Below, one piece after another: positions 606-17,415 of a stretch of DNA of 32,000 bases (position 1 is the first letter of the stretch; each line of letters begins with the position of its first letter). Source of the stretch: Candidatus Saccharimonadota bacterium (GTDB taxonomy: Bacteria > Patescibacteriota > Microgenomatia > UBA1406 > GWC2-37-13). The DNA lies in NCBI GenBank assembly GCA_001790095.1, contig MGBH01000001.1, positions 900,001-932,000 on the forward strand. Direction: 5' to 3'. The notes under the pieces are model-generated. The model worked only from the letters and a program-made list of their open reading frames with translations, had not been told where the DNA came from and ran no database searches. A program made the translations under genes and the position numbers.

Positions 606-1418
606 TAAATTATGAGGGTGTAGTATATAGATATATACGAACCTGATGATTATCCCCCTTCGTTCACGTTCGTCTTACAGTTATCCGCCGCATCTTCCTT
701 CTCGCCTTTTCAGTTCTATTCGAACACGGCTCGAAGAGCAATGCTTGGCGGATTTGGTCTCAGTATTTCTAAAATTTCATTTTAGAAACTGATCCCAAAC
801 AAAACGCGCCCTGCCTTTCACCAATGTGGGAAAAACAGGGCGGCGCTTAAAGTGTCTCAATCATTTATCCAGGACTATATCTTTTACCGTTAAACCATGA
901 CATCCTGAATAAGGTTATAAGGTCTAAGATGATACTCATATATTTTAAGATTTAATTGTTAAAGGTGCGATTTTGAAGAGTGTGAGAGCTTTTTTCAAGT
1001 TGGCCTTATATAAGGCTATGTTTGTTGAGTTGGTTTGACCGTTTGTTTACTCAACCTTTTTTTGAAAAATTCCCCGCCTTCTCTTCTTGATCCTTAAGAA
1101 ACTGCCTATGTATTGTTTGCTTATTGTTGAAAACTTTTCTAGATAAAGTTTTCACTCATCCCGGGTTTGCTAAGCAAATTTTGAAAAAGCGTTTCTTGGA
1201 TCTAACTTATAATATTTTTTGAAGAGATTTTAATTTTTCTCTTCATAATATCAGAATAAAGTATATTTTTAATTTTGTCAAGGGGTATTTTATCTTATAG
1301 TTAAAATACTAGGGTCTTTGAAGCTAAAATACAAATATAGTTCGTCAAAAATACTTAATACCTATAATAAATATTATGTTTTTTGAAAAAAATATAAACT
1401 CTTATTTATTCTCTCGTT

Positions 1419-1427
1419 TGTTACACT
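1419..1427 (+). promoter_or_regulatory. Extended -10 (TGtTACACT) 6 nt upstream of the transketolase ATG
   Basis: TGtTACACT-aaatat-ATG(1434). The same 9-mer and spacing occur upstream of the ORF at 23728. Confidence 0.4.
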
Positions 1428-1433
1428 AAATAT

Positions 1434-3596
1434 ATGACTAGTATCTTGACTCTTAAAGCATTAAGTAAACGTATCCGCTACCAAATCCTTTCTTCAACTA
1501 CTGCGGCCGGGTCTGGTCATCCAACATCGTGTCTCTCAGCTGTTGAGCTCATGACTACCCTCTTTTTCGGAGGGTTTCTGAAGCAAGATATACAAAATCC
1601 CCAAAATTATGAAAATGATCGGGTTATTTTTTCCAAAGGCCATGCTGCTCCCCTTTTATACTCTTTATACGAGACAGCGGGGGTGCTCACTCAAAAAGAA
1701 CTGATGACACTCCGCAAGTTTGATTCGCGCCTCCAGGGCCATCCCACCCCTGAGTTTCCATGGGCTGATGTAGCAACGGGCAGCTTGGGGCAAGGATTGT
1801 CTATCGCTGTTGGCATGGCTCTTGCTTTAAAAAACTTTCGGTCACTACTTCCTAATATATATGTTCTCCTGGGTGATTCTGAGCTTGCTGAAGGACAAAA
1901 TTGGGAAGCACTTGAAATAGCCTCATATTATAAACTCAATACTATCGTTGGCATTCTTGATATGAGTCGTTTAGGCCAACAGGGACAAACTATGCTCGGA
2001 TGGAACACACATGCCTACGCAAAAAGAGTTGAGGCTTTTGGATGTCAGGCCATTGTGGTAGAAGATGGCAACGACCTAAAACAGGTATATAATGCGTTTA
2101 TGCAGGTTGAAAGCTTACGTCTTACCTCCCATAAGCCTATTCTTATAATCGCTAAAACGATCAAAGGAAAAGGGGGTTCTTTCTTGGAAGATAAAGACGG
2201 TTGGCACGGGAAAACACTTTCCTCAAAACAGCTAACAAAAGCACTTGAAGAACTTGGACCTGTGGATTTGAAACTCAAAGGAACTATCAAAAAACCAAAC
2301 TACGCTTTTGCATGTCATCCCGGCGAAGGCCGGGATCCAATCTATAAATACAACAGCTGTAATTATAGTCTAGATTCCCGCCTACGCGGGAATGACAAAA
2401 TAAGCTCTTTACTAAAAAAACTGGTAGTTTCATCTCAAATGAAAGTAGCTACTTCTAAAAAAGCTTTGTGTACTACACATTATTCGCTAAACGACTCAAT
2501 CGCCACTCGTGAAGCATTTGGCGATGCACTTTTTGATATGGGCCATGACGAAAAAATCGTTGTGCTTGATGCTGAAATGTCAAATTCCACTTTTGAAGAT
2601 AAGTTTAAAAAAAGATTTCCTGAGCGTTTTTATGAGATGTTCATCGCTGAACAAAATATGATGTCAACGGCTCTTGGTATGGCTAAAATAGGGCATATCC
2701 CTTTTGTCTCAACATTTGCTGCATTCCTTACTCGAGCATTTGATCAAATACGGATGTGTCAATATTCTATTCAAACTGCGATAGGCGGCGAAAATTCAGG
2801 CAAGAATTTGAAACAGAATCTATCGCAATCAAACACTCTCAATATTATTGGTTCACACTGTGGGGTATCAATTGGGGCAGATGGACCATCTCAGATGGGT
2901 CTTGAAGATATTGCCATGATGCGTGCAATCAATCAGAGTACAGTCCTCTATCCTGCAGATGCTGTATCCAGCTACAAACTCACCCGTCTTATGGAGACAA
3001 ATCCCGGCATCAATTACCTGCGCACCACCCGTGAAAAAACACCGATTATTTATAACAATGATGAAGAATTCCATGTGGGAGGATTAAAGATACATTACCC
3101 AAACCCAAATAAATTACAAATCACAAATAACAAATTACAAACAAATCACAAATCCCAAAATTCAAAACTACAAACAAAATATAAAATCAAGGCAATAGTT
3201 ATTACCGCTGGGATTACACTACACGAAGCTTTGAAAGCGCAAAAAGAACTTGAAAAAGAAAAGATATATATAACGGTCGTAGATCTTTATAGCATAAAGC
3301 CGTTGGACGTGAAATCATTACAGACGGCTATAAAAGATGTAAAAAAAATAATCGTGGTTGAAGACCATTATGAAGCGGGAGGAATAGGAGAGGCTATATT
3401 ATCAATAACCAATTTTCAATCAAACTCTAATAATTCAATGATCAATGAAAATTCATTGAAAACTGAAAATTGCAAAATTACAAAATTTACTCACCTCTGT
3501 GTCCGTAAAACGCCCCGTTCAGGTACGCCTCAAGAGCTACTTCGCTTTGAAGGAATCGATAAAGAAGCTATCAAAAATACTGTTATCTATGAATGA
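1434..3596 (+). CDS. tkt: Transketolase, with N-terminal (TPP-binding) and C-terminal (pyrimidine-binding plus C-terminal domain) sections in a single ORF carrying four in-frame inserts
   Basis: AAGSGHPTS, SKGHAAP, GSLGQGL and GDSELAEGQNWEA (TPP motif) lie in residues 1 to about 290. ATREAFGDAL, VVLDAEMSNST, FIAEQNM, GSHCGVSIGADGPSQMGLEDIAMMR and VVEDHYEAGGIG lie in residues about 355-720. Confidence 0.85.
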   Translation: MTSILTLKALSKRIRYQILSSTTAAGSGHPTSCLSAVELMTTLFFGGFLKQDIQNPQNYENDRVIFSKGHAAPLLYSLYETAGVLTQKELMTLRKFDSRLQGHPTPEFPWADVATGSLGQGLSIAVGMALALKNFRSLLPNIYVLLGDSELAEGQNWEALEIASYYKLNTIVGILDMSRLGQQGQTMLGWNTHAYAKRVEAFGCQAIVVEDGNDLKQVYNAFMQVESLRLTSHKPILIIAKTIKGKGGSFLEDKDGWHGKTLSSKQLTKALEELGPVDLKLKGTIKKPNYAFACHPGEGRDPIYKYNSCNYSLDSRLRGNDKISSLLKKLVVSSQMKVATSKKALCTTHYSLNDSIATREAFGDALFDMGHDEKIVVLDAEMSNSTFEDKFKKRFPERFYEMFIAEQNMMSTALGMAKIGHIPFVSTFAAFLTRAFDQIRMCQYSIQTAIGGENSGKNLKQNLSQSNTLNIIGSHCGVSIGADGPSQMGLEDIAMMRAINQSTVLYPADAVSSYKLTRLMETNPGINYLRTTREKTPIIYNNDEEFHVGGLKIHYPNPNKLQITNNKLQTNHKSQNSKLQTKYKIKAIVITAGITLHEALKAQKELEKEKIYITVVDLYSIKPLDVKSLQTAIKDVKKIIVVEDHYEAGGIGEAILSITNFQSNSNNSMINENSLKTENCKITKFTHLCVRKTPRSGTPQELLRFEGIDKEAIKNTVIYE
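2314..2396 (+). mobile_element. MITE/REP-like 83-bp double-hairpin element, copy 1, inside the transketolase ORF and read in frame
   Basis: Termini are GTCATCCCGGCG...CGCGGGAATGAC (imperfect terminal inverted repeats). There are two perfect 8-bp stem / 4-nt loop hairpins at 2317-2336 and 2374-2393. By eye it is about 85 percent identical to the inverted copy at 22226-22307. Confidence 0.7.
2778..2826. repeat. 49-bp palindromic insert inside the conserved pyrimidine-binding domain of transketolase
   Basis: GCGATAG (2778-2784) pairs with CTATCGC (2820-2826). The inner pair is AAATTC (2792-2797) with GAATTT (2804-2809). It encodes the extra segment ..AIGGENSGKNLKQNLSQ.., which is absent from the usual DQIR..N..GSH spacing. 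Confidence 0.5.
3098..3190. repeat. A/C-rich low-complexity insert (imperfect repeats of about 22 nt, aaattacaaa(t/c)..caaat) in frame in transketolase
   Basis: It encodes PNPNKLQITNNKLQTNHKSQNSKLQTKYK. It shares the strings aaaattcaaa and atataaaatc with the secE-nusG spacer element. Confidence 0.5.
3408..3492. repeat. AT-rich palindrome-containing insert in frame near the transketolase C-terminus
   Basis: It contains the palindrome tcaatga-aaat-tcattga. It encodes TNFQSNSNNSMINENSLKTENCKITKF, between the conserved GGIGEA and PRSG motifs. Confidence 0.45.
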
Positions 3597-5484
3597 AGCT
3601 TGGTATTCTCTTTATTCTATTTATCATAAAAGCTTCAATATCACGCATCAGCTCTTCTTGAATATCTGCTGGTATTATTTTTTGCTGTTTTATTCTATTA
3701 AGAAGTTTATTAATTCGCTCATCCCATCGTTTTCCATTAAAAAATTGCCATAAAAGAGTATCCAATGTCGCTTTACCTTCAAAAAATTCGCTTTTTACTA
3801 TTGAGTCAAACATTAATGCGGTAGGATGCATACGTGAGAGGTATTTTTGTGCACGAAGCAAACTAATTATGCTATCATAAAAATTATCTTCAGCTGCAAT
3901 GAGTACATCATGATATGAAGAGATCGGATCTTCAGGCTTGATCAAAACATGAGCATTACCCAGGGGGAGTTGAATTTTACGTTCCGCTTCATTTTGACCT
4001 AAAGAAGATGATAGATTTTGTATGCTGGCAATTGCTTTTCGTGTACTTTCGGAAAGTACTTTCGGATCGCCACGAACTCCAATCAAAAATGTACCTCCGT
4101 ATCTGCCGAAAATAAGATGTTCTCGCTCTTCAGGTTTGATTGAACTGCTTATTTTATTCCATAAAGTAACGATCGCATCATCTGCATCAACATAGCTAAT
4201 ATAATCATTCATTTCTTTGATAAACTTCAGATCCACCACATACATCTCACGTACCTCTCCCCGCGTCACATGCTCCTGAAAATCATATTTTGAGTATACG
4301 GTATCACCCAAAAGCTTATCGTAAACAATATTCTCAATAAAATGCAGAATAGCTTCTCTCCGATGCTTTACAACTGGATTGTGATCTTCTGCTCTTGGAG
4401 TAGAGCTTTTTCTCTGCTCATCATACCTGACTTTTTGTTCTTTAAGATCAAGGTCTTCTGCAAGAAATAGTGCCGTTGCGAGTTCTGGATGCATTTTAGC
4501 AAGATGCAAGATCTTTTTTCTCATTTTTTCATGCTCATTTTTTTCTTCTTGGATATCAGTTGGATAGATGGAGTTTTCTATAGCTTCAATAGAGGAGGTC
4601 CTTCTCCCTTGTATCTTCATCGCTTGTTCTTGATTAAGTATTAAGCCTCGCGAAAGATAGGAAAGGGTGGTGTCCCGTATGGGAGAAGGTGAATCTTTGG
4701 TAATATCAATCCAATCTACCTTGTCGCCTTTGAGCAAGATCTCCTCTTGTACTATACCTTTATTTTTCCTATAATACCCGCCCCGAGTTGCTAAATGCCT
4801 TTTTACTCTTGATTCAATCTCAGCTTTAATATCAGCTTTTCCTGAAACTTGTTTGAAGTCGCCAATAAGAGCCAATACAAACTCATCTCCTCCGTATCGG
4901 CCAAAATAATAATCTCTTGATTGATCTTTTCCTAGATCAAATTCTTGCCAGACTTCATCGATAGCCTGTTGAATAGCTTTTGCTGAACGATTTACGATAA
5001 GATCAGCAGATCTGTGAGGACTCCCCTCAACAGCAAAATCAGCTCCACGAAGATCTTTGATATCAAACATCCCCAACTGCAAAGAAGCTCCTTCATATTT
5101 ACCATTGGGAGCAACTTTCTGAAGCACTTCATGAAAAAAAGCAGACCTTCCAAGGATAGGAAACCCTTCTTCCTGTATCGGTTGTTCTCCTGGAGGTGAA
5201 AACGTAATATCACGCATTAATCCTGTATCTAAGGCTCTGCTGAAAAAAGACTCAAGGATGTTTGTTGCGGTATTATATCCTTCTTTACTGGGCTCAGGCA
5301 TCTCAAAATGATTTATCTGTCCCCGGTAAATCCTTTCAAGAAAGTTATATGCTGATGGAGACATCGCTTTGTATTTATCAAGCATACGGCTTGCTTCATG
5401 GCGCGCAATATCAGGCGTATGAAGCTTGGCAACTTTGCTTTCAGCCGGTTCAATCAGAGTTTGTTCAGGAAATGTAACTCCCAT
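3583..5484 (-). CDS. Protein with two tandem GGDEF/Palm-like nucleotide cyclase domains (first has RYGGDEF, second has RYGGTF) and a helical C-terminal region
   Basis: Domain 1 reads FDIKDLRGADFAVEGSPHRSADLIV...FGRYGGDEFVLAL, with GGDEF at 4879-4893. Domain 2 reads VDLKFIKEMNDYISYVDADDAIV...FGRYGGTFLIGV, with GGTF at 4087-4098. Both align by eye to the DxDxFKxxNDxxGHxxGD...RxGGDEF pattern. The ATG at 5482-5484 is preferred over the track's TTG at 5523 because TATACT lies 6 nt upstream. Confidence 0.6.
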   Translation of the reverse strand: MGVTFPEQTLIEPAESKVAKLHTPDIARHEASRMLDKYKAMSPSAYNFLERIYRGQINHFEMPEPSKEGYNTATNILESFFSRALDTGLMRDITFSPPGEQPIQEEGFPILGRSAFFHEVLQKVAPNGKYEGASLQLGMFDIKDLRGADFAVEGSPHRSADLIVNRSAKAIQQAIDEVWQEFDLGKDQSRDYYFGRYGGDEFVLALIGDFKQVSGKADIKAEIESRVKRHLATRGGYYRKNKGIVQEEILLKGDKVDWIDITKDSPSPIRDTTLSYLSRGLILNQEQAMKIQGRRTSSIEAIENSIYPTDIQEEKNEHEKMRKKILHLAKMHPELATALFLAEDLDLKEQKVRYDEQRKSSTPRAEDHNPVVKHRREAILHFIENIVYDKLLGDTVYSKYDFQEHVTRGEVREMYVVDLKFIKEMNDYISYVDADDAIVTLWNKISSSIKPEEREHLIFGRYGGTFLIGVRGDPKVLSESTRKAIASIQNLSSSLGQNEAERKIQLPLGNAHVLIKPEDPISSYHDVLIAAEDNFYDSIISLLRAQKYLSRMHPTALMFDSIVKSEFFEGKATLDTLLWQFFNGKRWDERINKLLNRIKQQKIIPADIQEELMRDIEAFMINRIKRIPSFIHR

Positions 5485-5490
5485 ACATGT

Positions 5491-5496
5491 AGTATA
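5491..5496 (-). promoter_or_regulatory. -10-like TATACT 6 nt upstream of the ATG at 5484
   Basis: The minus strand reads ggcccTATACT-acatgt-ATG. There is no good -35 (TTGATC at a 21-nt spacing). Confidence 0.3.
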
Positions 5497-5531
5497 GGGC
5501 CTAGAAGTGAAAAAAGCGATCAAACTGAGAT

Positions 5532-5567
5532 AAAAAAACCACGGGCTCTAATTGCCCGTGGTTTTTT
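5532..5567. terminator. Bidirectional rho-independent terminator
   Basis: A7-CCACGGGC-tctaatt-GCCCGTGG-T6: an 8-bp GC-rich stem flanked by an A-run and a T-run. It lies 21 nt past the stop of the 1,898-aa ORF. Confidence 0.7.
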
Positions 5568-5587: not shown

Positions 5588-8500
5588 TTATTTTTCTTCA
5601 GGAGAAACTTCAATAATAACACGACCATCTCCTCCCTCTGGCAACGCTTCCTGTGTTTTTGGATTTGGCGTATTACCAACCAATTGAGCGATGTTTTGTG
5701 CTGCTTCTACACCTCTCGTTTCTGCAATCAAAGCTTGAGGAGTAGGAGGTGTCAACACTACACCAGGCAATCCAACTGAGGCAAAATGGGCACGATAATC
5801 ATCTAGAAGAGTAACAAAAGGACTCTCAGAATCAGATAGTGTTTTTATCCATTCCCCATATTCTCGTAAAAACTTTATCATTGCATCAGGTCTCGTAAGG
5901 ATTGACTTCAGATAATCAAGCATAAGCGTAGGCAATCTATCTTCAAGTTGTTTTAGCGTATTCTTTGCAGCTGTCAAATATGCTTGTCTTGTCCCTTTAA
6001 ATAATCCCCATTCTGCTTCCATCTGTGTAAGAAGGTCCGTTTGATTTGTGGTTGCAAGTTCAATTACTTTTTTATCGTAAGCTGCTTGAAGTACGGCTGT
6101 CTGGTTTATCATCGCCGCTTCTTGTCTGAACATACCTGTTCTTGCCTCTCTTAATATTTTTTCTCTTTCTGCCTCGTCAGTGAGAGCAGCAGCAACCAAA
6201 TCCAAAGCAGCTATCCGAAGTTTATTAATCCCCGCGGTTAATTCAACATCACCTGTCTCTTTAAGCATACCTGCAAGCAGTTCTCTTACATTGGCCCGAT
6301 CAGCAAATGCTGCTTGGAGTGTACCTCTTACAGCATCTGCGGTAACCGCTTGATTTTGACTTCTTTGCGCTGCCATATAAGATGCTACCGTCAAAAACTC
6401 TAGTGCTTGGTTTGCCCTATCTCCTCCGATAGCTATTCCTACATTACCTCCCCCAACCCCCCCACCCTCACCTGTAGGAAGAGGAGGTGTTTGATCTTGT
6501 TGTAATAATAATTGTAATTCTTGACCGATAACTCCTAAAATCTGACCAAAATCCACTTGCCCACTTCCCAACTTTTCAACAAGAGAAGCGGCTAAGGAAA
6601 GACCTGAACTGTTAGGAGCTGCAGAAACCGTTTCTGATGTAAATCCTGAGGCTGTCTCTTCATGTGCCTCTATATTTGTGTCCTTTCGTAATTTTTCATA
6701 TCTTTGATTTGCTTCTGCAACCAGCTGTGCTGTTAAAGCAGGAGCTCCTTCAATGCTTTTGATTAATCCAGTTGTTGGATCAATCTCTATTCCTGTAGCC
6801 ATTCTTCCTCTCACCATATTGATGACTTGAGATAATTGATCTGCCACAGTCAAAGCAGCTTGTGCGATCTGGCTCGTTACTGCTTCTGATTGTGCTATTA
6901 AACCGGTCGGGTCCATAGGTGGTCTCATATCCTTATGGGTAGTTGCATAGATTAATAGATCATCTTGACCCAATCGTCTTAGAGTTGGTATAAGTCTTAC
7001 CCTTGCAGCTTCTGCTGGACAACTACCTTCAACTGCATCAAGAGTAACATCTCCAAACTGCTTTATAAATGCAACAGCTGAATGCAGAAAAGATCTCCCT
7101 AATGTTCCATCTTTCAGTGATAGATGTCCTGCATCATCAACCACCAATAGGGACTTTGGGGGTTTAATTAAACCTGTTTCAACAGGTATAAGTTCGTATC
7201 CGTTTTCTCCTTTTCGATATATTTCAACTTGATCATGTACTGCAGTTCCGATAGGTGATCTTCTAGCCATACCTCCAATTGCAGCATAACGCTCAAGTAA
7301 ATCTAAGGTTGCCCCAAGAACTATACGAGCTTGTGCTTCACGATATGGCGGTTTTGCACCACCCTCTATGGCTGTGTTTGCTTTCAAAGCAGTTGCACGA
7401 GCAATCCCTAACCATGTAGTCCCATCATCAATCTTCCAATGAGCACCTGTATTTTCTCTTAGTTTTTGAACTAACATGTCATACATAAGAGTCAATGATT
7501 CATTGCTATAATTTCCCGCCCATTGATGTAATACTTCAAGCGCAGCACGTCGGACCATAGGATTAAATGTTCTGCCTTGTGTATCAAGCAATATATCAGT
7601 TAAATCGTCAAAAAATAGTTGTCTTGTTTCCTCTTTTACTGGATCAAAAGTTCCTTCTCTCGTTGCATAGAGAGCTCCATTCATAAGTAGCTGAGTAGCA
7701 AGACGTGCCTGCATTTTCGCATTTAACAACCCTGTGCTTTCTTGCTCTGTCAATGTGACTGGTGGTTTTGCTCTAAGTTTTGCAAGAGCATCCTGCCATA
7801 GTGGATAATCTAATGATCGGTTCAAAGCAGAAGCTCGCAGTTGATCATGAAACAATCCATACATTGTTCGTAATAACCCTGCGGCTACTTCATGACCTTC
7901 AGGTGAGTTTTTAAGATCTGGATCTGAGAGCCATGACATACGTTGATTTGGATCTCTAAGAACTACTGCAATATCACCGGTATGCCTGAACAGTGTTTCA
8001 AAACCTCCACCTCTTGCTTTTGGATTACTTGCAGACATATCATCTGCCAAATCAAGTATTGCTAATATGTCACCATCCCATGCTCTTTGAAGTTCTTTAT
8101 TCAAAGGAATAGTACCAGTACGCTCATAATATGCATATGCTTTTTGCGCTTGAGTCCATTCCGAATGTTCGGCAATTTCTCTTTGAGCCTGTAAACGGAC
8201 TTCACGTTTTCCTTTTCTTGCGTCTTTTGCAATTCTTCCTGCAACAAGTGGGGATGCTATTTCAAAAACAGCAAGTGGATCAGCCATCATATAAAATGAC
8301 TCTACTTCCATCCATGCTGAGTCTAGCCCGCTACGCATGATTCTATAAGCATTTTCAATCGAAGCAACTGTAGCTTCAACCAACACATTCCATTTCTCAG
8401 CTTGAACCGGCGTACCAGCTGCATGAGTTAAGGTCTCAAACCGTGCAAGAGCAAGCAGCATAACAAATAAAGCTTGCTCTTCTGGAGGTTTTTTATTTTT

Positions 8501-11284
8501 TGTTTCAATATATGGAAGCATTCTCTTAAATATTTCAGGATTTAGCCTTGCAGCTCGTATCACCTGTTCTGTTACTATTTCACCGATTGTTTTTGTCGCT
8601 TTGGCACCTTGCCCCGAAGCTTCTCTTGCATCAAGCGCAATAGCGATAGGTGAATTAATGACATCATGAATCACTTGATATGTAAGTCTCATTTGAAGAT
8701 CTAGATTGGTTGTTTTAACCATCATGTCAAAAGCATTCTGTACTTCAGCCTCAAGAAATGCAAGTGATGATTCTGAGTCCATAAGAGCAATTCTTTGAGC
8801 TAAAGCATCTCGTTGTCTTTGCAAATATCCGTCCAAATCAATTACTCCACCAGCTCTATATCTAGGCGCATCAAGTAATCTCATATGTTCACTCCAAAAT
8901 CCATTACTTCTCTCAACTGCTTGATCAGGCTGACCAACTATTTGTAAAGCTATTTGGCTGAACGCTTCTGTCAACTGCTCTGTAGCTGTCAACACTGCTA
9001 CCAATCTTTTCCCATGACCTTCGGTTAATTTACCTGGCATATCATCGCCAGTTACTACTCGTTGAGTATTTATCACAATATACATCTGCTGTGCCGGCTC
9101 AAAAGTTTGAGCTAAGCTTAGTAAACGTCTTTGTTCTTCAGCAAGAACATCATTAATCCTTTGATATTCTGTTCCTATTCCATAAGTTCTATCAAACAAA
9201 GCATCTACCAATCCTTGAGGGTATGCCACAGTAGTACCAACTGTGCGGAAATATTCATTGGCACCAACTGTTAATGCACCATTTTTTACTACAAGAGCAT
9301 CAAGGTCATCAATCATTCCAGTATGTGGCATTATGCGTACCCCTCCCAAATATGTATCTTTTCCAAGAGCATATGTATCTTTTAAGGCAGGAAGATTCTG
9401 TGTTCTGCCTAATACATTAAGGGCTTCTTGAACAATCCTTTGATCAGCTTTATACAATCCATTTTGTTCTGTACCTTTTGCTAAGCCATAAAACGGATTT
9501 CCAGAACAATCAACAAGTCGTTGCCACATTTCACGTATTGGTCCTTGTCTAAGGGCCATTTCAGCTTGATTTTGTATTTGCTCTTTTTGTCTTTGATCAT
9601 TTCCCTTATATAGCTTTAAAGCATCTGCACGAGCTTGTTCGATATTAGTGTTTAACTCAGCATTTCCATTTTCATAATGTACGGTTATGTCTTGTGCCAA
9701 ACCTTCAGCAAGTCTTGGAAGTCTTTTTTCAGTGGTTGCTTCGTTGTACATACGAATCAACTGTCCTTGTGTTGCTAGATCCTGTACTTGGGTAATTGCT
9801 GGTTTAATTTGTTGAAGAGCCTGATACACATGAAGTTGTGCATAAGGATCAAAGGGAGCTGCCGCTTCGGCAAGCGCATTCAGATCTCTTACGATTTCAT
9901 CTTGTACACAAGCTCCTGGTTGATTTGGATGTACTGGATATCCAAGAGCACCATATATTGGATTTCGCATTTGAGCAACCAACTCAGCTACTCGCCGTTG
10001 TGGATCTGCAAGATAAACTTGTTGATTTAAATAATCTCTTCCTGCTCTAAGTCCATCACGGTTCAAATCTTGAAGCAATGTCACCAAATCTCGAACTGGA
10101 TATCTTTCAAGTGCTCCTTGAGTATGATTTACTGTTGGCAAAGTAGTATTTGCACCAAAGACGATCTCATTCCCTCCTAATAAAACTTCTTTACCAGCAC
10201 TGATAAATGCTGCTTGTGTAGGAGCATCAAAAGTGCCAAGATTTACAACAGTTTCAGCAATTTCTCTTCTTGCTGCTTCAATTGCAGCCATACTTCCTCC
10301 AGGTAAGCCAGACAAAGGATGAGTAACGTGCTCTATCTGTTCGTTCCAGAAAGCTAATGCAACCGAACGTAATGCATCATAGGTTGCCCTATGCGCATCA
10401 ACACTATTAGTTTGTGCTTGTGCTTCTGTTAAGCTTACTCCTCTTAAAGCTTGGCTTAAAGCATTTTCTCGTTGTTCTAAAATTCGAACAGAAAAATTAT
10501 GAGCTCCTACTTCAAAAGTCTGTTTTGTTCCGGCTATCATTTCAGCTACAATAGCCCTTGCTTTTATACGTTTTCCAGACTTTGATGTGACTCGTGCATT
10601 TGTTTCATTAAGCAGTGTCAATAAATTGCCACCGACAGCAGCGCGTGCATCACCCTCTAATTCATTAACCGCTTGAGACGCAAGAAATGCATCATACTCT
10701 ACTTGAACGGGAGATTTATCCACATCGTCATATCCTTCTGGAATGATAAGTGGATGCGTCCCATCAGGTCCCATCTTCGTATGAGTTATTAATGAAGCTG
10801 CACGAGGAATGATTAAACCACTTTTTGTTGCTACATCTGCTGGAATACCTTGCTGTAGTAATTCAACTTCTTGTAAAAATCTTCTTTCCCAACCATGTTC
10901 AATATGTGGATTTGAAAGCAGTTCCGCGTATAACTCTTTAATTCTAGCTCTTACTACAGGCTCTCCTGTATTTGCATAAATATCTTGAAGGACTCGCTCT
11001 CCATATGTGATAAAAGGAACAACATTATCTCCTGGTTCACTTGCTAATCCTTGCATTCCAATTACGGGTACCTGCACAACACCTCTTGATTTATCAAAAT
11101 AGCGACTCGTAACACCAAGTGTAGAATTATCCAAACTATAAAGTGGATCCCAGTAAGATGCAGGGTTTGTAACCGGCCCTCTTAATAATGTTCCTACTCT
11201 TTTTTGAATGGGAATTGTAAACGCTGGTTCAAATCTTCTTAACCCTAAAAATCCTGCTCCCTTTCGTTCAGTAATTTTACTCAT
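5588..11284 (-). CDS. Giant hypothetical protein, 1,898 aa, predicted cytoplasmic, with no domain recognised
   Basis: An uninterrupted 5.7-kb ORF with an ATG start. I could find no signal peptide, hydrophobic segment of 20 aa or more, Walker A or HExxH. The sequence is rich in A/L/Q/G/T/R and poor in Lys, with a Gly-rich hinge PTGEGGGVGGGNVGIAIGG. Confidence 0.85.
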   Translation of the reverse strand: MSKITERKGAGFLGLRRFEPAFTIPIQKRVGTLLRGPVTNPASYWDPLYSLDNSTLGVTSRYFDKSRGVVQVPVIGMQGLASEPGDNVVPFITYGERVLQDIYANTGEPVVRARIKELYAELLSNPHIEHGWERRFLQEVELLQQGIPADVATKSGLIIPRAASLITHTKMGPDGTHPLIIPEGYDDVDKSPVQVEYDAFLASQAVNELEGDARAAVGGNLLTLLNETNARVTSKSGKRIKARAIVAEMIAGTKQTFEVGAHNFSVRILEQRENALSQALRGVSLTEAQAQTNSVDAHRATYDALRSVALAFWNEQIEHVTHPLSGLPGGSMAAIEAARREIAETVVNLGTFDAPTQAAFISAGKEVLLGGNEIVFGANTTLPTVNHTQGALERYPVRDLVTLLQDLNRDGLRAGRDYLNQQVYLADPQRRVAELVAQMRNPIYGALGYPVHPNQPGACVQDEIVRDLNALAEAAAPFDPYAQLHVYQALQQIKPAITQVQDLATQGQLIRMYNEATTEKRLPRLAEGLAQDITVHYENGNAELNTNIEQARADALKLYKGNDQRQKEQIQNQAEMALRQGPIREMWQRLVDCSGNPFYGLAKGTEQNGLYKADQRIVQEALNVLGRTQNLPALKDTYALGKDTYLGGVRIMPHTGMIDDLDALVVKNGALTVGANEYFRTVGTTVAYPQGLVDALFDRTYGIGTEYQRINDVLAEEQRRLLSLAQTFEPAQQMYIVINTQRVVTGDDMPGKLTEGHGKRLVAVLTATEQLTEAFSQIALQIVGQPDQAVERSNGFWSEHMRLLDAPRYRAGGVIDLDGYLQRQRDALAQRIALMDSESSLAFLEAEVQNAFDMMVKTTNLDLQMRLTYQVIHDVINSPIAIALDAREASGQGAKATKTIGEIVTEQVIRAARLNPEIFKRMLPYIETKNKKPPEEQALFVMLLALARFETLTHAAGTPVQAEKWNVLVEATVASIENAYRIMRSGLDSAWMEVESFYMMADPLAVFEIASPLVAGRIAKDARKGKREVRLQAQREIAEHSEWTQAQKAYAYYERTGTIPLNKELQRAWDGDILAILDLADDMSASNPKARGGGFETLFRHTGDIAVVLRDPNQRMSWLSDPDLKNSPEGHEVAAGLLRTMYGLFHDQLRASALNRSLDYPLWQDALAKLRAKPPVTLTEQESTGLLNAKMQARLATQLLMNGALYATREGTFDPVKEETRQLFFDDLTDILLDTQGRTFNPMVRRAALEVLHQWAGNYSNESLTLMYDMLVQKLRENTGAHWKIDDGTTWLGIARATALKANTAIEGGAKPPYREAQARIVLGATLDLLERYAAIGGMARRSPIGTAVHDQVEIYRKGENGYELIPVETGLIKPPKSLLVVDDAGHLSLKDGTLGRSFLHSAVAFIKQFGDVTLDAVEGSCPAEAARVRLIPTLRRLGQDDLLIYATTHKDMRPPMDPTGLIAQSEAVTSQIAQAALTVADQLSQVINMVRGRMATGIEIDPTTGLIKSIEGAPALTAQLVAEANQRYEKLRKDTNIEAHEETASGFTSETVSAAPNSSGLSLAASLVEKLGSGQVDFGQILGVIGQELQLLLQQDQTPPLPTGEGGGVGGGNVGIAIGGDRANQALEFLTVASYMAAQRSQNQAVTADAVRGTLQAAFADRANVRELLAGMLKETGDVELTAGINKLRIAALDLVAAALTDEAEREKILREARTGMFRQEAAMINQTAVLQAAYDKKVIELATTNQTDLLTQMEAEWGLFKGTRQAYLTAAKNTLKQLEDRLPTLMLDYLKSILTRPDAMIKFLREYGEWIKTLSDSESPFVTLLDDYRAHFASVGLPGVVLTPPTPQALIAETRGVEAAQNIAQLVGNTPNPKTQEALPEGGDGRVIIEVSPEEK

Positions 11285-11404: not shown

Positions 11405-14191
11405 TTAGAGGAATGACAATACTTCTAATAATCGCTCTCTTGTAAATCTGGGATATGTTATTCCATCAATTTGAAATAGTATTACGTTTTCTGGATTAAG
11501 TAATAGATGTATACATTCTCGCAATCTCCTTTTATTCATTTCTTGTTTTACAGATAGCGATCCTCTTACCTTACCACTATCCATAAAACGATCAACGTCT
11601 GTATGTATTTTTTCCAGGACTTGAACCATAGTCTGAATCACTAGGCCTTTGTGAGCTTCAGTATCTTTTGTTCTTAACATATTAATAAGTATAGTTAGAC
11701 TTTCTGCATAATCCAGCTTGATTGACTTTTTTCTCTCTTTTCCTTTTGTTGCTCTACGAATTTTTTGTTCGGGTACATGTTGAAATGCTGGATTGACAAG
11801 AGCTAAAGCTTTTGAAAGCCGTACTTTATTACCGAACGTACTACCATATTCTTTTTTTTGCCCTGGAGTTAGATGTTTTGAGTTCAATCCTTCTCTTATT
11901 CTTAACAATTTATCTGGTGGTATATGACCAACTTGTAACTCATCTATCGCTGCTTTTAATTTTGGTGGATACTCCTTTTTCTGCTTCCTTTCATAGATAG
12001 CTACACCAAGAGCAGTTGCCACAGTAGTATTAAAAAGTCCAAGTCCAATGATACCAACTTCAGCAGATACTTCGACAACCTTTTGTAATAATGGATCAAC
12101 ATCTGGAGCTTGAGCTTCGGCTACAAATTGTGCCGGATGCCCTGCATCATCATACATAGTTAGAGTAATCGTCGCTTTATTTTCCAACCATGGCGTATCG
12201 CACGTAACCGTTGACTGACTTCTATCTTGTGCTACTGAAGCTAGGTGACAAATCACCTGATCATTATTTCCTGTGATATCTTTAGTTTGTGTGCGAATCC
12301 ATAGTAATATCTCTGAAAGCGGCTGACCAAATATGTGGGTATCTTGCCAGGGAGCAGGTTGAGAACCCTGAGATTGTGTTATATCCAATGCAAGATTATG
12401 TTGAGGATCAGGATGAATAAGAAGTATATTTATCGTACGTCCGCCATGATCGTTTGGCTGCTGAGAAACGACCTGGACTGTTACTCCGGCAAATGGAGAG
12501 TACCCTGGTTCAAGGACGCTTAACTGCTCACTACAGTTACCCAATATTCCACACGCCTGTACAAAACTTGTTCTTCCTGTATCTCCTGGTTCAGGCCTAT
12601 CGGTAAACAAAGCAACACCCAACTCATTTACTCCTGAAGATTCTGCTTGATTATCTACTGTTCGTGTTACTGAACATGGATCGCCAACAGGAGTCTCCGC
12701 ACAAGTTGCATCAAGTACTCTCGTGGCATCTTGTATTGCTACATGTATGGCCGTTAGGGTAGGTGGAGGAAGAGATCTCATAAATGCTTCAAATGCAGTG
12801 TTTTGACCTGAGAACTGTACCTCACCCGCTACTCTTCCATCTGGGTCACTTATGGAAATCGGTATGATGGCCATATGAGTATCTGCACCTATTGAAATAC
12901 GAGTTCCATCTTCCAATACGATGTCCCCCATCCCATTACATAAAACTGGAAAATTAACTGTATTTGAGGCAGCGTCAAACTGTGCTCCGTCTGCACCTTC
13001 TCCTTGTAGACAGGTAGTAGGAAGCGCTGCGGTTGTTTCTCCTGAATTTTCATTTCCATGATTATCTATTGTGGTAAATCCTCGGGTCCGAATTGATCCA
13101 TCGATGGGTAATATAGCGGTGCCGTCTTCTATTACTACTCTATCTCCTCCGTCTGTAGGTATTATCCTCCCCTGTCCATCACAAGTAAGCGCAGCGGCAC
13201 CTTCACCCACAATGCCTGTTTGAATACAAATTGTTTCCTTGGTATCAACTTCTCCTGTTATCAAAGCAGCATCTCGAGCTCCTTCATCACATCCTCCTTG
13301 TCCATCTAGTGGCGCCATTGAAACAGTTAAAGCAATGGGTCCTTCTTGACCATCTACCGGTATGATATCTAGGCCAAGCCCTCCATCATCCAGTGTCACC
13401 TCTGCGCTTTGTACTGGAGATAAAACACCTTCTATTGTTGCGCATGCAGGAGACATTTCGTTACTACGGTTCCCATCAAGAACAACACGAGTTGGATCAA
13501 CTATCGTCTCCCCAAGAGCAACATCATCAATCTGAGGTGGTTCGGGTGGCATGGGAACATCAACAGATATTTGTACTAATCCATCAGGAGAAGGCTCACC
13601 ACAGATCGGTTCTCCTTGGCTTGACGCATTTAAACAATTTTCTGCGTTAACCTGTAGGGTCCCTGACCCTACTATTCCTAAATCAAAACATTGTTCACCA
13701 GGAGCTTGATCAGGTAAAGCCACTTGAACAAGTGAGATAACAGCGCCATCCATAGTAACACCACTGACTTGAGGTATTATGTCTGGGTTCGGAAGCTTTA
13801 TCCCTAAACTATTTGCAACAGCTGAAACACCAAGCAAGTGTGCGGTTTCATCTGTTTGAGATAAACCCACACAAACTTGTACAGGTGATCCTAATGGCAG
13901 ATTGCCACTTGAAGGAAAAAACCTAACATCAGGCGATCCTAATTCGCTTTGAATTGCAGCAACTTGCTCTGCACTTAAGTTTAAATCTTCTAAATCTGTA
14001 GTAGATTCTACAGCTGGGGCAGAACCATTACAAGCAGTGGTAGTTAGTGCTAACGCTGTTCCTGAGACAATGAATTGCACAGGTCCTTTTGACGGAAGAT
14101 GACCCTGACCACCACCCACTTTTACACCTTCACCAGATACATCGGTTGGGGGGTTCATTTTAGCAGAATGTCTTATGTGGAGCTCTCCCAT
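11405..14191 (-). CDS. Membrane-anchored Cys-rich surface protein (about 928 aa): lipoprotein-like signal, large ectodomain, one TM helix and a basic cytoplasmic tail
   Basis: The N-terminus reads ..SKGPVQFIVSGTALALTTTAC (lipobox-like). I count 17 Cys between track residues 66 and 676. The TM helix VGIIGLGLFNTTVATALGVAIY (11993-12061) is followed by ERKQKKEY... and a K/R-rich tail of about 195 aa. The ATG at 14189-14191 is preferred over the track's TTG at 14227, which coincides with a -35 box. Confidence 0.8.
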   Translation of the reverse strand: MGELHIRHSAKMNPPTDVSGEGVKVGGGQGHLPSKGPVQFIVSGTALALTTTACNGSAPAVESTTDLEDLNLSAEQVAAIQSELGSPDVRFFPSSGNLPLGSPVQVCVGLSQTDETAHLLGVSAVANSLGIKLPNPDIIPQVSGVTMDGAVISLVQVALPDQAPGEQCFDLGIVGSGTLQVNAENCLNASSQGEPICGEPSPDGLVQISVDVPMPPEPPQIDDVALGETIVDPTRVVLDGNRSNEMSPACATIEGVLSPVQSAEVTLDDGGLGLDIIPVDGQEGPIALTVSMAPLDGQGGCDEGARDAALITGEVDTKETICIQTGIVGEGAAALTCDGQGRIIPTDGGDRVVIEDGTAILPIDGSIRTRGFTTIDNHGNENSGETTAALPTTCLQGEGADGAQFDAASNTVNFPVLCNGMGDIVLEDGTRISIGADTHMAIIPISISDPDGRVAGEVQFSGQNTAFEAFMRSLPPPTLTAIHVAIQDATRVLDATCAETPVGDPCSVTRTVDNQAESSGVNELGVALFTDRPEPGDTGRTSFVQACGILGNCSEQLSVLEPGYSPFAGVTVQVVSQQPNDHGGRTINILLIHPDPQHNLALDITQSQGSQPAPWQDTHIFGQPLSEILLWIRTQTKDITGNNDQVICHLASVAQDRSQSTVTCDTPWLENKATITLTMYDDAGHPAQFVAEAQAPDVDPLLQKVVEVSAEVGIIGLGLFNTTVATALGVAIYERKQKKEYPPKLKAAIDELQVGHIPPDKLLRIREGLNSKHLTPGQKKEYGSTFGNKVRLSKALALVNPAFQHVPEQKIRRATKGKERKKSIKLDYAESLTILINMLRTKDTEAHKGLVIQTMVQVLEKIHTDVDRFMDSGKVRGSLSVKQEMNKRRLRECIHLLLNPENVILFQIDGITYPRFTRERLLEVLSFL

Positions 14192-14198
14192 GGGGTGT

Positions 14199-14227
14199 AT
14201 TATACCAAAAACTATAGGAACTTTCAA
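14199..14227 (-). promoter_or_regulatory. Consensus sigma70-type promoter of the 928-aa gene, leaderless layout
   Basis: The minus strand reads TTGAAA(14222-14227)-17 nt-TGgTATAAT(14199-14204)-acacccc-ATG(14191). The spacer contains CTATAG. Confidence 0.5.
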
Positions 14228-17378: not shown

Positions 17379-17383
17379 ACTTA

Positions 17384-17409
17384 AATATAGCATAAATCGC
17401 TGTATACTA
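17384..17409. promoter_or_regulatory. Back-to-back divergent extended -10 elements
   Basis: The minus strand reads TGcTATATT-taagt-ATG(17378). The plus strand reads TGtATACTA-tctatc-ATG(17416). Confidence 0.35.
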
Positions 17410-17415
17410 TCTATC

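What the first reader, a model, noticed from the sequence alone, without database searches (positions are those of the whole stretch)
3583..5484. Tandem GGDEF-like domains with complementary degeneracy (possible intramolecular pseudo-heterodimeric cyclase)
Domain 1 keeps the catalytic RYGGDEF signature (4879-4893). At the position of the base-contacting Asn of the DxDxFKxxND motif it has Ala (FDIKDLRGAD), and PHRSAD replaces GHxxGD.

Domain 2 keeps the ND and the downstream Asp (KEMNDYISYVDADD). It has lost the acidic pair, reading RYGGTF (4087-4098).

GGDEF enzymes act as homodimers. Cas10 and class III cyclases instead use two unequal Palm/cyclase domains in one assembly to build a single asymmetric site. 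A one-chain arrangement like this could make a product other than c-di-GMP, for example a mixed or linear oligonucleotide. Alternatively, one domain could act as an allosteric or receptor site. The N-terminal region (about 140 aa) and C-terminal region (about 110 aa) are unassigned.
Basis: partly seen in the sequence, partly recalled or inferred. Interest (0 to 1): 0.7.

Follow-up and report, generated by a model that had tools for sequence, protein, structure and literature searches.

The report
Tandem GGDEF protein, second domain catalytically dead
This Candidatus Roizmanbacteria gene encodes an uncharacterised but widely conserved protein with one intact and one catalytically dead copy of the domain that makes the bacterial signal c-di-GMP, so one chain may hold both halves of the enzyme, but this is untested.

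Summary
The ORF (3583-5484, minus strand, 633 aa) is real and conserved. It does contain two GGDEF-fold domains. D1 (about aa 76-284) keeps RYGGDEF and the metal Asp. D2 (about aa 386-545) keeps the canonical substrate-binding set D418, K423, N426 and D435 with exact canonical spacing, but reads GGTF instead of GG(D/E)EF. This pattern holds in 114 divergent full-length relatives; 144 clusters match at E<=1e-30. The window protein's 90%-identity cluster carries Candidatus Roizmanbacteria names.

One detail of the finding is mis-registered. The canonical base-contacting Asn aligns with D149, not A148. That position is Asp in 79 and Asn in 32 of 114 relatives. D1 is therefore nearly canonical, and the "complementary degeneracy" is mostly one-sided.

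No Cas10 or mCpol relationship appears, and no defence context. Neither domain has an RxxD I-site, and there is no recognisable sensor domain. AlphaFold2 gives a compact, confident monomer (pLDDT 88, pTM 0.89), but I could not obtain coordinates, so D1-D2 packing remains untested.

Best reading (about 0.4): D1 is the only catalytic half-site and D2 is a built-in, non-catalytic GTP-holding partner. Close rival (about 0.35): a conventional D1-D1 dimer with D2 as a GTP sensor. I class it as a new variant of a known kind, of moderate interest.

The parts
3583..5484 (-). Complete CDS, 633 aa plus stop (stop codon 3583-3585). An alternative TTG start lies at 5523. The 3' end overlaps the convergent transketolase gene by 14 nt (3583-3596).
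   Evidence: The window protein shares a 90%-identity cluster with P0154, which carries accessions OGK62826.1/OGK64025.1 and others of Candidatus Roizmanbacteria.
5260..5484 (-). N-terminal helical region, aa 1-75. It is poorly conserved. A low-confidence linker spans aa 61-75.
   Evidence: AF2 helices 15-21, 24-40 and 43-60, with pLDDT falling to 58 at aa 61-70. The family alignment is gappy here.
4633..5259 (-). D1: catalytically intact GGDEF domain, aa 76-284. It includes the split N-terminal motif D86-x-G88-L ... L-N-R113.
   Evidence: Profile A2 matches PDB GGDEF chains at E 1e-4. Conservation. AF2 secondary structure.
5146..5148 (-). R113, the equivalent of the 'NRR' cross-dimer Arg of diguanylate cyclases. 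Conserved in 113 of 114 relatives.
   Evidence: Role of the Arg taken from PMC6456294.
5002..5064 (-). D1 substrate motif, D141-D161. D141 is the metal Asp. R146 aligns with PleD K332. D149 sits at the canonical Asn position. D161 is the Watson-Crick-face Asp.
4879..4899 (-). D1 R196-Y-G-G-D200-E201-F202, the catalytic hairpin. There is no RxxD I-site upstream (position 192 is I/V/L/Y).
4330..4632 (-). Helical linker region, aa 285-385. No family assignment.
   Evidence: AF2 helices 285-292, 309-312, 317-331, 333-359 and 374-387. Couplings H332-H405 and H332-D401 link it to D2.
3850..4329 (-). D2: degenerate GGDEF domain, aa 386-545. It starts with the D389-x-L391-L-G N-terminal motif.
   Evidence: Profile A3 matches PDB GGDEF chains at E 5.9e-7. 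Conservation.
4180..4233 (-). D2 substrate motif, D418-D435. It holds D418 (D/E), K423, E424, N426, D427 and D435 at exact canonical spacing.
4087..4104 (-). D2 R461-Y-G-G-T465-F466. T465 replaces the Mg-binding acid and F466 replaces the general-base Glu.
   Evidence: Roles of the two acids taken from PMC6456294.
3586..3849 (-). C-terminal helical region, aa 546-633.
3715..3744 (-). Conserved C-terminal motif F581-F-x-G-K585-R586-x-x-E-R590. Of 114 relatives, 93 keep K585, 110 keep R586 and 109 keep R590. It is coupled to the D2 helices that flank the base pocket.
   Evidence: Couplings S430-F582, A437-F581 and G409-F582.
5533..5567 (.). A 14-bp G+C-rich hairpin flanked by an A-run and a T-run. 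It looks like a terminator between the upstream 1898-aa gene and this gene, which would make this gene its own transcription unit.

Best explanation
Shown:
- This is a soluble tandem-GGDEF protein with no recognisable sensor domain. It belongs to a sizeable uncharacterised family. The window protein's 90%-identity cluster carries Candidatus Roizmanbacteria names, and a second member lies in another Roizmanbacteria genome.
- D1 has every residue that a diguanylate-cyclase half-site needs. These are the metal Asp D141, R146 in place of the transition-state Lys, D/N149 and D161 for the guanine, R113 as the in-trans Arg, D200 for Mg, and E201 as the in-trans general base.
- D2 keeps the full guanine and phosphate binding set (D/E418, K423, N426, D435, R461, GG). 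It has Thr/Ser and Phe/Ile/Leu where the Mg ligand and the general base should be.

Inferred:
- D2 binds a guanine nucleotide but cannot catalyse. A nearly invariant basic motif (K585, R586, R590) from the C-terminal helices probably helps hold its phosphates.

Inferred, and my preferred mechanism:
- The chain is a self-contained asymmetric pair. E201 of D1 activates the 3'-OH of the GTP held in D2.
- That 3'-OH attacks the alpha-phosphate of the Mg-GTP held in D1, forming one 3'-5' bond and giving pppGpG.
- The reciprocal bond cannot form in place, because D2 lacks both acids.
- The product is therefore either the linear dinucleotide, or c-di-GMP made in a second round after the intermediate rebinds the other way round.
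- With no I-site and no sensor domain, output would depend mainly on GTP supply and on expression.
For: - Fold and family.
- Conservation: in 114 full-length relatives sharing only about 20-35% identity with the window protein, G198/G199/D200/E201 are kept in 111-113 (F202 in 98), R113 in 113, D141 in 113, N426 in 113, D435 in 113, K423 in 110 and E424 in 107. Position 465 is T/S in 91, and position 466 is F/I/L in 104. So D2's binding residues are as constrained as D1's catalytic ones, while exactly the two catalytic acids are gone.
- Residue roles: the third motif residue holds Mg on the domain's own GTP. The fourth, Glu, deprotonates the 3'-OH of the GTP in the opposite half-site. An Arg acts across the dimer on the opposite base (PMC6456294).
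- No dimerisation device: Pfam finds no recognised sensor or dimerisation domain. No continuous stalk helix enters D1. A short helix (aa 76-84) follows a low-confidence linker, and a hairpin is inserted inside the DxLTGLxNR motif.
- Compact monomer: the AF2 model has pLDDT 88.1 and pTM 0.89.
- Inter-domain covariation exceeds a row-permutation null. Observed top scores are 1.12, 1.09 and 1.00, against null maxima of 0.70-1.05. V227-Y462 and Y237-I449 survive restriction to one subfamily.
- No RxxD I-site in either domain.
- Precedent from general knowledge: tandem or heteromeric palm cyclases with one degenerate site, such as mammalian adenylyl cyclase C1/C2, soluble guanylyl cyclase and Cas10.
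Against: - D1 is a complete canonical half-site, so a conventional inter-chain D1-D1 dimer would work just as well. As far as I know, every characterised diguanylate cyclase works that way.
- The relative orientation of D1 and D2 in the model could not be read, because no coordinates were returned.
- The two inter-domain couplings that survive subfamily restriction link D2's hairpin to helix alpha-3 and strand beta-4 of D1. That surface is not obviously the face where two active sites would meet.
- Several other couplings vanish when one subfamily is removed, so they reflect phylogeny rather than contact.
- A pseudo-symmetry test was positive (r = 0.062, p about 5e-4). It is confounded, however, because the same columns are conserved in both domains.
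- Degenerate GGDEF domains that merely sense GTP are documented, for example in FimX (PMC8846402).
- There is no biochemical evidence of any kind.
Confidence: 0.4

Rival explanations
1. Conventional diguanylate cyclase with a GTP-sensing accessory domain. Two chains associate so that two D1 domains form the usual symmetric active site and make c-di-GMP. D2 binds GTP or GDP as an allosteric sensor or clamp docked on D1, tuning activity to the guanine-nucleotide pool.
For: - D1 has all canonical catalytic and substrate residues, including the cross-dimer Arg.
- Degenerate GGDEF domains that bind GTP and regulate a neighbouring catalytic domain are documented. In FimX, the PDE activity is stimulated by GTP only when the degenerate GDSIF motif is intact (PMC8846402).
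- The most robust inter-domain couplings place D2's hairpin (Y462, F466) against alpha-3 and beta-4 of D1 (V227, K220, Y237). By position (GGD + 20, my own mapping to PleD R390), that surface is the I-site face rather than the active-site face.
- One relative has an HD_5 (HD-GYP-type) gene 0.5 kb away, a hint that c-di-GMP-type turnover exists in this lineage.
Against: - No recognisable dimerisation or stalk element was found.
- The known GTP-sensing degenerate GGDEFs regulate an EAL domain, which is absent here.
- The model is confident as a compact monomer.
- Sensor duty alone does not obviously explain why D2 keeps GG, R461 and D/E418 yet has lost exactly the two catalytic acids.
Confidence: 0.35
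2. D2 is a receptor for the product or for another nucleotide. It would bind c-di-GMP, pGpG or (p)ppGpp in its former active site together with the C-terminal K585/R586/R590 motif, giving feedback control in place of the missing I-site.
For: - Neither domain has an RxxD I-site.
- An RxxxR-like basic motif (R586-x-x-x-R590) is nearly invariant. It co-varies with the D2 helices that flank the base pocket.
- PleD structures with ppGpp or pppGpp bound exist among the fold matches, showing that GGDEF proteins can bind alarmones.
Against: - From general knowledge, known c-di-GMP-receptor GGDEF domains (PelD, PopA) use the I-site, which is absent here.
- D2 keeps the substrate-type residues at exact substrate-site spacing.
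- No binding data exist.
Confidence: 0.12
3. Cas10- or mCpol-like oligonucleotide synthase. The two unequal palm domains would polymerise or cyclise ATP or mixed NTPs into oligonucleotide signals for a defence system.
For: - The domain layout alternates palm and helical regions.
- Weak full-length Foldseek matches to Csm1/Cas10 were found (9g9a_A at E 4.5e-3 and probability 0.69, 7v02_F, 9lq8_B).
Against: - No sequence-profile match to any palm family other than GGDEF, even at E<=10.
- TM to Cas10 is about 0.17, no better than a single-domain match.
- Both base pockets keep the guanine-specifying Asp (D161, D435).
- The order of active and degenerate palms is the reverse of Cas10.
- Neighbours are housekeeping genes: transketolase, P-type ATPase, acetyl-CoA synthetase, DHFR/thyA and frr. 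No CARF, SAVED, Cas or effector genes are present, and PADLOC finds nothing.
Confidence: 0.03

Closest known systems
Canonical GGDEF diguanylate cyclases (PleD, WspR, DosC, DgcR; Pfam PF00990)
   Same: - Both domains have the GGDEF fold.
- D1 has the metal Asp, RxGGDEF, the Watson-Crick-face Asp and the NR Arg.
   Different: - The single sequence scores below the Pfam and TIGRFAM cut-offs.
- Two GGDEF domains sit in one chain, and the second is catalytically dead.
- There is no I-site and no sensor or stalk.
- D1 has Asp, not Asn, at the sugar-face position in the window protein, Arg for the Lys, and a hairpin inserted in the N-terminal motif.
- There are extra helical regions, and a conserved C-terminal FFxGKRxxER motif.
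Degenerate GTP-binding GGDEF domains of GGDEF-EAL phosphodiesterases (FimX GDSIF; PdeA/CC3396 GEDEF)
   Same: A non-catalytic GGDEF domain retained as a guanine-nucleotide-binding module next to a catalytic domain (PMC8846402; PdeA from my own knowledge).
   Different: The partner here is another GGDEF domain, not an EAL domain. D2 keeps an unusually complete substrate-binding set.
Tandem or heteromeric class III nucleotide cyclases (mammalian adenylyl cyclase C1/C2, soluble guanylyl cyclase alpha/beta)
   Same: A duplicated palm-type cyclase domain in one assembly, where one of the two symmetric sites has degenerated. This rests on my own knowledge. It is a working analogy only.
   Different: - It is a different branch of the palm superfamily.
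- In class III cyclases each site is built from both domains and acts on one NTP.
- In GGDEF enzymes each domain holds a whole NTP and the two NTPs react with each other. Losing one site therefore removes one of two bonds rather than one of two sites.
Cas10 (Csm1/Cmr2) two-palm cyclic-oligoadenylate synthase
   Same: One chain with one active palm (GGDD) and one degenerate palm, interleaved with helical domains.
   Different: - No profile similarity.
- TM is about 0.17.
- The active palm comes first here and second in Cas10.
- The pockets here are guanine-type.
- There is no CRISPR context.
Hypr GGDEF enzymes (GacA, Bd0367) that make cGAMP
   Same: A GGDEF enzyme whose base-pocket substitutions change product chemistry. 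The residue roles used here come from the paper on these enzymes (PMC6456294).
   Different: Hypr enzymes have Ser/Thr at the Watson-Crick-face position. Here both domains keep Asp there (D161 in 104 of 114, D435 in 113 of 114), so promiscuity toward ATP is not predicted.

Membership tests
GGDEF domain superfamily (PF00990 / TIGR00254) | Sequence-profile match at or above the curated cut-off | tested here: not met
   The window protein scores 21.0 bits against a 23.8 cut-off for PF00990, and 24.9 against 37.4 for TIGR00254. All 8 close homologues hit PF00990 at E<=1, best 3.1e-8.
GGDEF domain superfamily (PF00990 / TIGR00254) | GGDEF fold for each of the two domains | tested here: met
   The D1 and D2 profiles match GGDEF/diguanylate-cyclase chains almost exclusively in the PDB, at E 1e-4 and 5.9e-7. 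The AF2 model (pLDDT 88) has diguanylate cyclases as its best Foldseek matches, most at probability 1.00.
Catalytically active diguanylate cyclase | GG(D/E)EF motif plus the metal-binding Asp on strand beta-1 | tested here: met
   Met for D1 only. Of 114 relatives, 113 keep D141, 114 keep R196, and 111-113 keep G198/G199/D200/E201 (F202 in 98). D2 has GG[T/S/A][F/I/L], so it does not meet the criterion.
Catalytically active diguanylate cyclase | Guanine recognition by Asn (sugar face) and Asp (Watson-Crick face) | tested here: inconclusive
   D1 has D149 at the Asn position (Asp 79, Asn 32 of 114) and D161 at the Asp position (104 of 114). D2 has N426 and D435, each in 113 of 114, at canonical spacing.
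Catalytically active diguanylate cyclase | Active site formed by two GTP-loaded GGDEF domains, with c-di-GMP as product | not testable with these tools
   This needs model coordinates, oligomeric-state measurement and enzymology.
Catalytically active diguanylate cyclase | RxxD inhibitory I-site five residues before GGDEF (common but not obligatory) | tested here: not met
   Position 192 in D1 is I/V/L/Y and position 457 in D2 is V/I/L/F. Asp is not among the six commonest residues at either position in 114 relatives.
Cas10 / mCpol palm polymerases | Profile or structural similarity to the Cas10 or mCpol palm, with a GGDD motif | tested here: not met
   Pfam at E<=10 gives no palm family other than GGDEF. 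Foldseek matches to Csm1/Cmr2 have probability 0.44-0.69 and TM about 0.17. The motif here is GGDEF.
Cas10 / mCpol palm polymerases | Genomic association with CRISPR-Cas, CARF, SAVED or effector genes | tested here: not met
   Neighbours in the window and in seven related loci are housekeeping genes or unknowns. PADLOC finds nothing.
Hypr GGDEF (cGAMP synthases) | Ser/Thr at the Watson-Crick-face position in place of Asp | tested here: not met
   D161 and D435 are Asp. The criterion comes from PMC6456294.
GTP-sensing degenerate GGDEF of GGDEF-EAL proteins | A degenerate GGDEF domain coupled to an EAL output domain | tested here: not met
   Pfam and NCBIfam detect no EAL or HD-GYP domain in the protein. 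D2 does meet the feature 'degenerate motif with binding residues retained'.

The most novel reading that the evidence does not exclude
The family is a single-chain, intrinsically asymmetric GGDEF pair that can form only one phosphodiester bond per encounter. Its physiological product would then be a linear 5'-triphosphorylated dinucleotide (pppGpG) or another non-c-di-GMP guanine dinucleotide. That would be a lineage-specific signal, or a primer, in a group of ultra-small bacteria. It would also be the first GGDEF counterpart of the adenylyl cyclase C1/C2 and Cas10 'one live site, one dead site' design.
Probability: 0.2. Interest if true: 0.75.

Novelty: new variant of a known kind. Interest (0 to 1): 0.5.

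Why it matters
GGDEF enzymes are the textbook case of a cyclase that must dimerise, and their regulation is usually explained as control of that dimerisation. This family has a live and a dead half-site fused in one compact chain. It has no recognisable sensor and no product-inhibition site. It is conserved in at least 144 sequence clusters, at least two members of which lie in Candidatus Roizmanbacteria genomes. Two outcomes are possible:
- It may show how a GGDEF pair works asymmetrically, with a possible non-cyclic product.
- It may be a minimal cyclase gated by GTP supply in organisms that are generally thought to depend on scavenged nucleotides.

Either outcome would give a first experimental handle on nucleotide second-messenger signalling in Candidate Phyla Radiation bacteria. 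The literature searches I ran found nothing on that subject.

Tried and rejected
- **Reading D1-D2 packing from the model.** The structure tool returns no coordinates, and /data holds none. The key geometric test could not be done.
- **Mean-field DCA on 151 relatives.** Inter-domain couplings exceed a permutation null. Many of them (F117-F459, F116-W442, G195-D389) disappear when the N149 subfamily is removed, so they are phylogenetic. The two survivors do not define the interface.
- **Pseudo-two-fold symmetry test on the coupling matrix.** It is nominally significant (r = 0.062, p about 5e-4). It is confounded, because equivalent columns are conserved in both domains. I rejected it as evidence.
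- **My own first reading.** I corrected this after seeing that D141 + 8 = D149 in the HMMER alignments, and that a subfamily carries Asn there.
- **D2 lacking a cross-dimer residue.** I rejected this. Position 399 aligns with R113 and toggles with position 462 (F-R in 48, R-F in 20).
- **Second word-index homologue search with the family profile.** It added only one fragment.
- **Conserved partner gene.** Small ORFs downstream of relatives are unrelated to one another. The giant neighbouring ORFs are not homologous between loci. Adjacency to transketolase is common but changes orientation and is absent in P0007, P0008 and L005, so I read it as lineage synteny rather than an operon.
- **Database scans.** PADLOC, Rfam and tRNA scans found nothing.
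- **Literature.** Searches for tandem or dual GGDEF, CPR or Patescibacteria with c-di-GMP, and pppGpG found no description of this family.


Full report
**1. What is there**

An ORF runs from 5523 (TTG) or 5484 (ATG) down to 3583 on the minus strand. From the ATG it encodes 633 aa. I translated the quoted coordinates directly:
- 4879-4899 gives RYGGDEF.
- 4087-4104 gives RYGGTF.
- 5002-5064 gives DIKDLRGADFAVEGSPHRSAD.
- 4180-4233 gives DLKFIKEMNDYISYVDAD.

The gene sits downstream of an 1898-aa ORF. A 14-bp G+C-rich hairpin with flanking A and T runs (5533-5567) separates the two, so this gene is probably its own transcription unit. Its 3' end overlaps a convergent transketolase gene by 14 nt.

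The window protein shares a 90%-identity cluster with P0154, which carries Candidatus Roizmanbacteria accessions (OGK62826.1 and others). The sources name these 'hypothetical protein' or 'GGDEF domain-containing protein', and the longest contig is 1.2 Mb. Roizmanbacteria belong to the Candidate Phyla Radiation (Microgenomates), to my knowledge.

**2. Are both halves really GGDEF-like?**

Yes.
- The single sequence scores just under the curated thresholds. PF00990 gives E 3.2e-4 and 21.0 bits against 23.8, in two stretches. TIGR00254 gives 24.9 bits against 37.4.
- A word-index search found eight homologues at 24-32% identity. All eight hit PF00990.
- I cut the family alignment into a D1 profile (A2) and a D2 profile (A3). 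Each matched diguanylate-cyclase/GGDEF chains almost exclusively in the PDB, apart from one weak unrelated chain each. Best E values were 1e-4 and 5.9e-7.
- The two domains are only remotely alike (hhalign E 1.1e-3, probability 20%). The duplication or fusion is therefore old.
- AlphaFold2 with an 84-sequence alignment gave pLDDT 88.1 and pTM 0.89. Each half shows the beta-alpha-alpha-beta-beta-alpha-beta pattern expected of a GGDEF domain, and helical regions lie before, between and after them.
- The best Foldseek matches are diguanylate cyclases, most at probability 1.00. Cas10 chains appear only at probability 0.44-0.69 and TM about 0.17, which is no more than a one-domain match.

**3. Size of the family and its constraints**

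An exhaustive profile search of 1.84 billion cluster representatives found 144 proteins at E<=1e-30. Most are 550-650 aa and are matched end to end. A further tail of ordinary GGDEF proteins brings the total to 740 at E<=1e-3.

I aligned 114 full-length representatives, which share about 20-35% identity with the window protein.

D1 conservation, out of 114:

| Residue | Count |
|---|---|
| R113 | 113 |
| D141 | 113 |
| R146 | 73 (otherwise G/S/F/Y/K) |
| D161 | 104 |
| N165 | 92 |
| R196 | 114 |
| Y197 | 106 |
| G198, G199, D200, E201 | 111-113 |
| F202 | 98 |

D2 conservation, out of 114:

| Residue | Count |
|---|---|
| D/E418 | 76 / 30 |
| K420 | 99 |
| K423 | 110 |
| E424 | 107 |
| N426 | 113 |
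| D435 | 113 |
| R461 | 103 |
| G463, G464 | 103, 100 |
| position 465 | T 75, S 16, A 7 |
| position 466 | F 59, I 34, L 11 |

Neither domain has the RxxD I-site. Asp is not among the commonest residues at position 192 or 457. A C-terminal motif, FFxGK585R586xxER590, is almost invariant.

**4. Correction of one detail in the finding**

Three lines of evidence place the Asn position at D149 instead:
- Both printed HMMER alignments, to 3ign and 4zve, put D149 opposite the Asn and A148 opposite the preceding hydrophobic residue.
- The spacing from the metal Asp agrees. D141 + 8 gives D149, just as D418 + 8 gives N426.
- Position 149 is Asp in 79 and Asn in 32 of the 114 relatives. Its identity co-varies with A/G160 more strongly than any other pair in the protein (D-A 78, N-G 31).

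About a quarter of the family therefore has the canonical N...GD arrangement. The window protein has a conservative Asn-to-Asp change. D1 is close to a canonical half-site, so the degeneracy is mainly on the D2 side.

The N-terminal '140 aa unassigned' also shrinks. D86-x-G88-L and L-N-R113 are the DxLTGLxNR motif of GGDEF domains, interrupted by an inserted hairpin at aa 93-105.

**5. Mechanistic reading**

Residue roles come from the GacA structure paper (PMC6456294).
- Asn contacts the sugar face of the base, and Asp or Ser contacts the Watson-Crick face.
- The third GGDEF residue holds the Mg on the domain's own GTP.
- The fourth, Glu, is the general base for the 3'-OH of the GTP in the opposite half-site.
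- A conserved Arg stacks on the opposite base.

D1 has all of these. D2 has everything needed to hold a guanine nucleotide, but it lacks both acids.

If D1 and D2 face each other, one bond can form. The 3'-OH of D2's GTP, activated by E201, would attack the alpha-phosphate of D1's GTP. The reciprocal bond cannot form. The product would be pppGpG, or c-di-GMP after the intermediate rebinds the other way round.

If instead two chains pair through D1, the enzyme is a normal cyclase. D2 would then be a guanine-nucleotide sensor, as documented for the degenerate GGDEF domain of FimX (PMC8846402).

**6. Attempts to discriminate between the two models**

Coordinates of the model were not available. 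I therefore computed mean-field DCA on 151 relatives.
- Intra-domain top pairs look like true contacts, for example D141-D200, F140-L204, V417-L508 and D389-R461.
- Inter-domain couplings exceed a row-permutation null.
- After removing the N149 subfamily, only V227-Y462 and Y237-I449 stay above the null. R146-E589, K220-F466 and A160-L392 remain in the top 0.1%.
- These pairs link D2's hairpin to alpha-3 and beta-4 of D1. That does not clearly match an arrangement with the two active sites facing each other.
- A symmetry test was nominally positive but confounded.
- Couplings of F581 and F582 with S430, A437 and G409 place the conserved basic C-terminal motif next to D2's base-pocket helices. 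This is consistent with the motif helping to bind D2's ligand.

The following favour a self-contained pair:
- Pfam finds no recognised sensor or dimerisation domain.
- No stalk helix runs into D1.
- The monomer model is compact.
- D2's binding residues are as constrained as D1's catalytic ones.

The following favour the homodimer:
- D1 is complete.
- All biochemical precedent points that way.

I put the two at about 0.40 and 0.35.

**7. Genomic context**

Neighbours are housekeeping genes.
- In the window: transketolase, two unknown giant ORFs, a P-type ATPase, and an ADP-forming acetyl-CoA synthetase that runs off the left end.
- L003, L004, L012 and L013 share the transketolase, ATPase and acetyl-CoA synthetase synteny. 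However, the orientation of transketolase relative to the GGDEF gene differs from the window.
- The P0007 and P0008 loci place the gene between DHFR/thyA and frr.
- In a second Roizmanbacteria genome the gene lies between the ATPase and acetyl-CoA synthetase.
- No defence or CRISPR genes are present, and PADLOC finds nothing.
- One relative has an HD_5 (HD-GYP-type) gene 0.5 kb away.

**8. Comparison with known systems and novelty**

The protein works like a GGDEF dinucleotide cyclase, and both domains belong to the GGDEF fold. It is not a Cas10, mCpol or Hypr enzyme, because defining features of each were tested and not met.

I found no description of this family, or of a characterised GGDEF-GGDEF* single-chain enzyme, in the searchable literature. 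Tandem GGDEF architectures do exist in databases, to my knowledge.

I rate it a new variant of a known kind, with interest about 0.5. It rests on solid, family-wide sequence evidence, and the follow-up experiment is simple and decisive. The exciting part, asymmetric single-chain catalysis with a non-cyclic product, remains unproven.

Noticed in passing
window 5588-11284 and 11405-14227 (minus strand): Two very large ORFs (1898 aa and 940 aa) have no Pfam or PADLOC match. At the same syntenic position (between the P-type ATPase and the transketolase/GGDEF pair), related genomes carry other giant ORFs: 1028 and 1221 aa in L003, and more than 922 and 1230 aa in L013. The one pair I compared (the 1898-aa ORF against the L003 1221-aa ORF) shows no detectable similarity, so this may be a hypervariable giant-gene slot.
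   Followed up: partly
window 5002-5064 (D149/A160); family alignment: The family splits into two D1 active-site types that co-vary tightly. One has Asp149 with Ala160 (78 sequences). The other has Asn149 with Gly160 (31 sequences), and the second type mostly lacks a basic residue at position 146. This may reflect two substrate- or metal-binding solutions.
   Followed up: partly
window 4099-4101 (Y462) and 4288-4290 (K399): Within D2, an Arg and an aromatic residue swap places between position 399 (equivalent to the NRR Arg) and position 462 (the x of RxGG). The pairs are F-R in 48 sequences and R-F in 20. This looks like a compensated cation-pi pair. D1 has the fixed version, R113 with Y197.
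   Followed up: partly
window 5533-5567: A perfect 14-bp G+C-rich hairpin is flanked by an A-run on one side and a T-run on the other. It could act as a two-way intrinsic terminator between the giant ORF and the GGDEF gene.
   Followed up: partly
window 1434-3596 (plus strand): The transketolase is a single fused 720-aa protein carrying low-complexity insertions, for example NPNKLQITNNKLQTNHKSQNSKLQTKYK. That makes it 43-92 aa longer than its counterparts in related loci (628-677 aa). Its stop overlaps the GGDEF gene's 3' end by 14 nt.
   Followed up: no
window 609-1433: An approximately 820-bp stretch has no ORF of 50 aa or more and no Rfam match. It lies between an ADP-forming acetyl-CoA synthetase gene (minus strand, running off the left end) and transketolase. 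That is unusually long for such a compact genome. It contains AT-rich direct and inverted repeats (TTTTTTGAAAAA twice).
   Followed up: partly
L012 7207-7953 (minus strand): A 248-aa HD/HD_5 protein (HD-GYP-type, PF13487 E 2.2e-20) is encoded 0.5 kb downstream of a family member. It is a possible partner phosphodiesterase. I saw it at one locus only.
   Followed up: partly
window 16860-17468 (minus strand): A 202-aa ORF gives weak, sub-threshold hits to the RnlA toxin DBD and the RNase LS-like HEPN domain (E 6e-4 and 2.5e-3). PADLOC finds nothing. It overlaps the start of the next ORF (17371-18984, PMT_2 plus TPR) by about 100 nt.
   Followed up: no
window 5480-5500: A TATACT hexamer ends 7 nt before the ATG at 5484, and there is no obvious Shine-Dalgarno sequence. 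The mRNA may be leaderless or nearly so. The simple promoter scan found no full sigma-70 match here.
   Followed up: no
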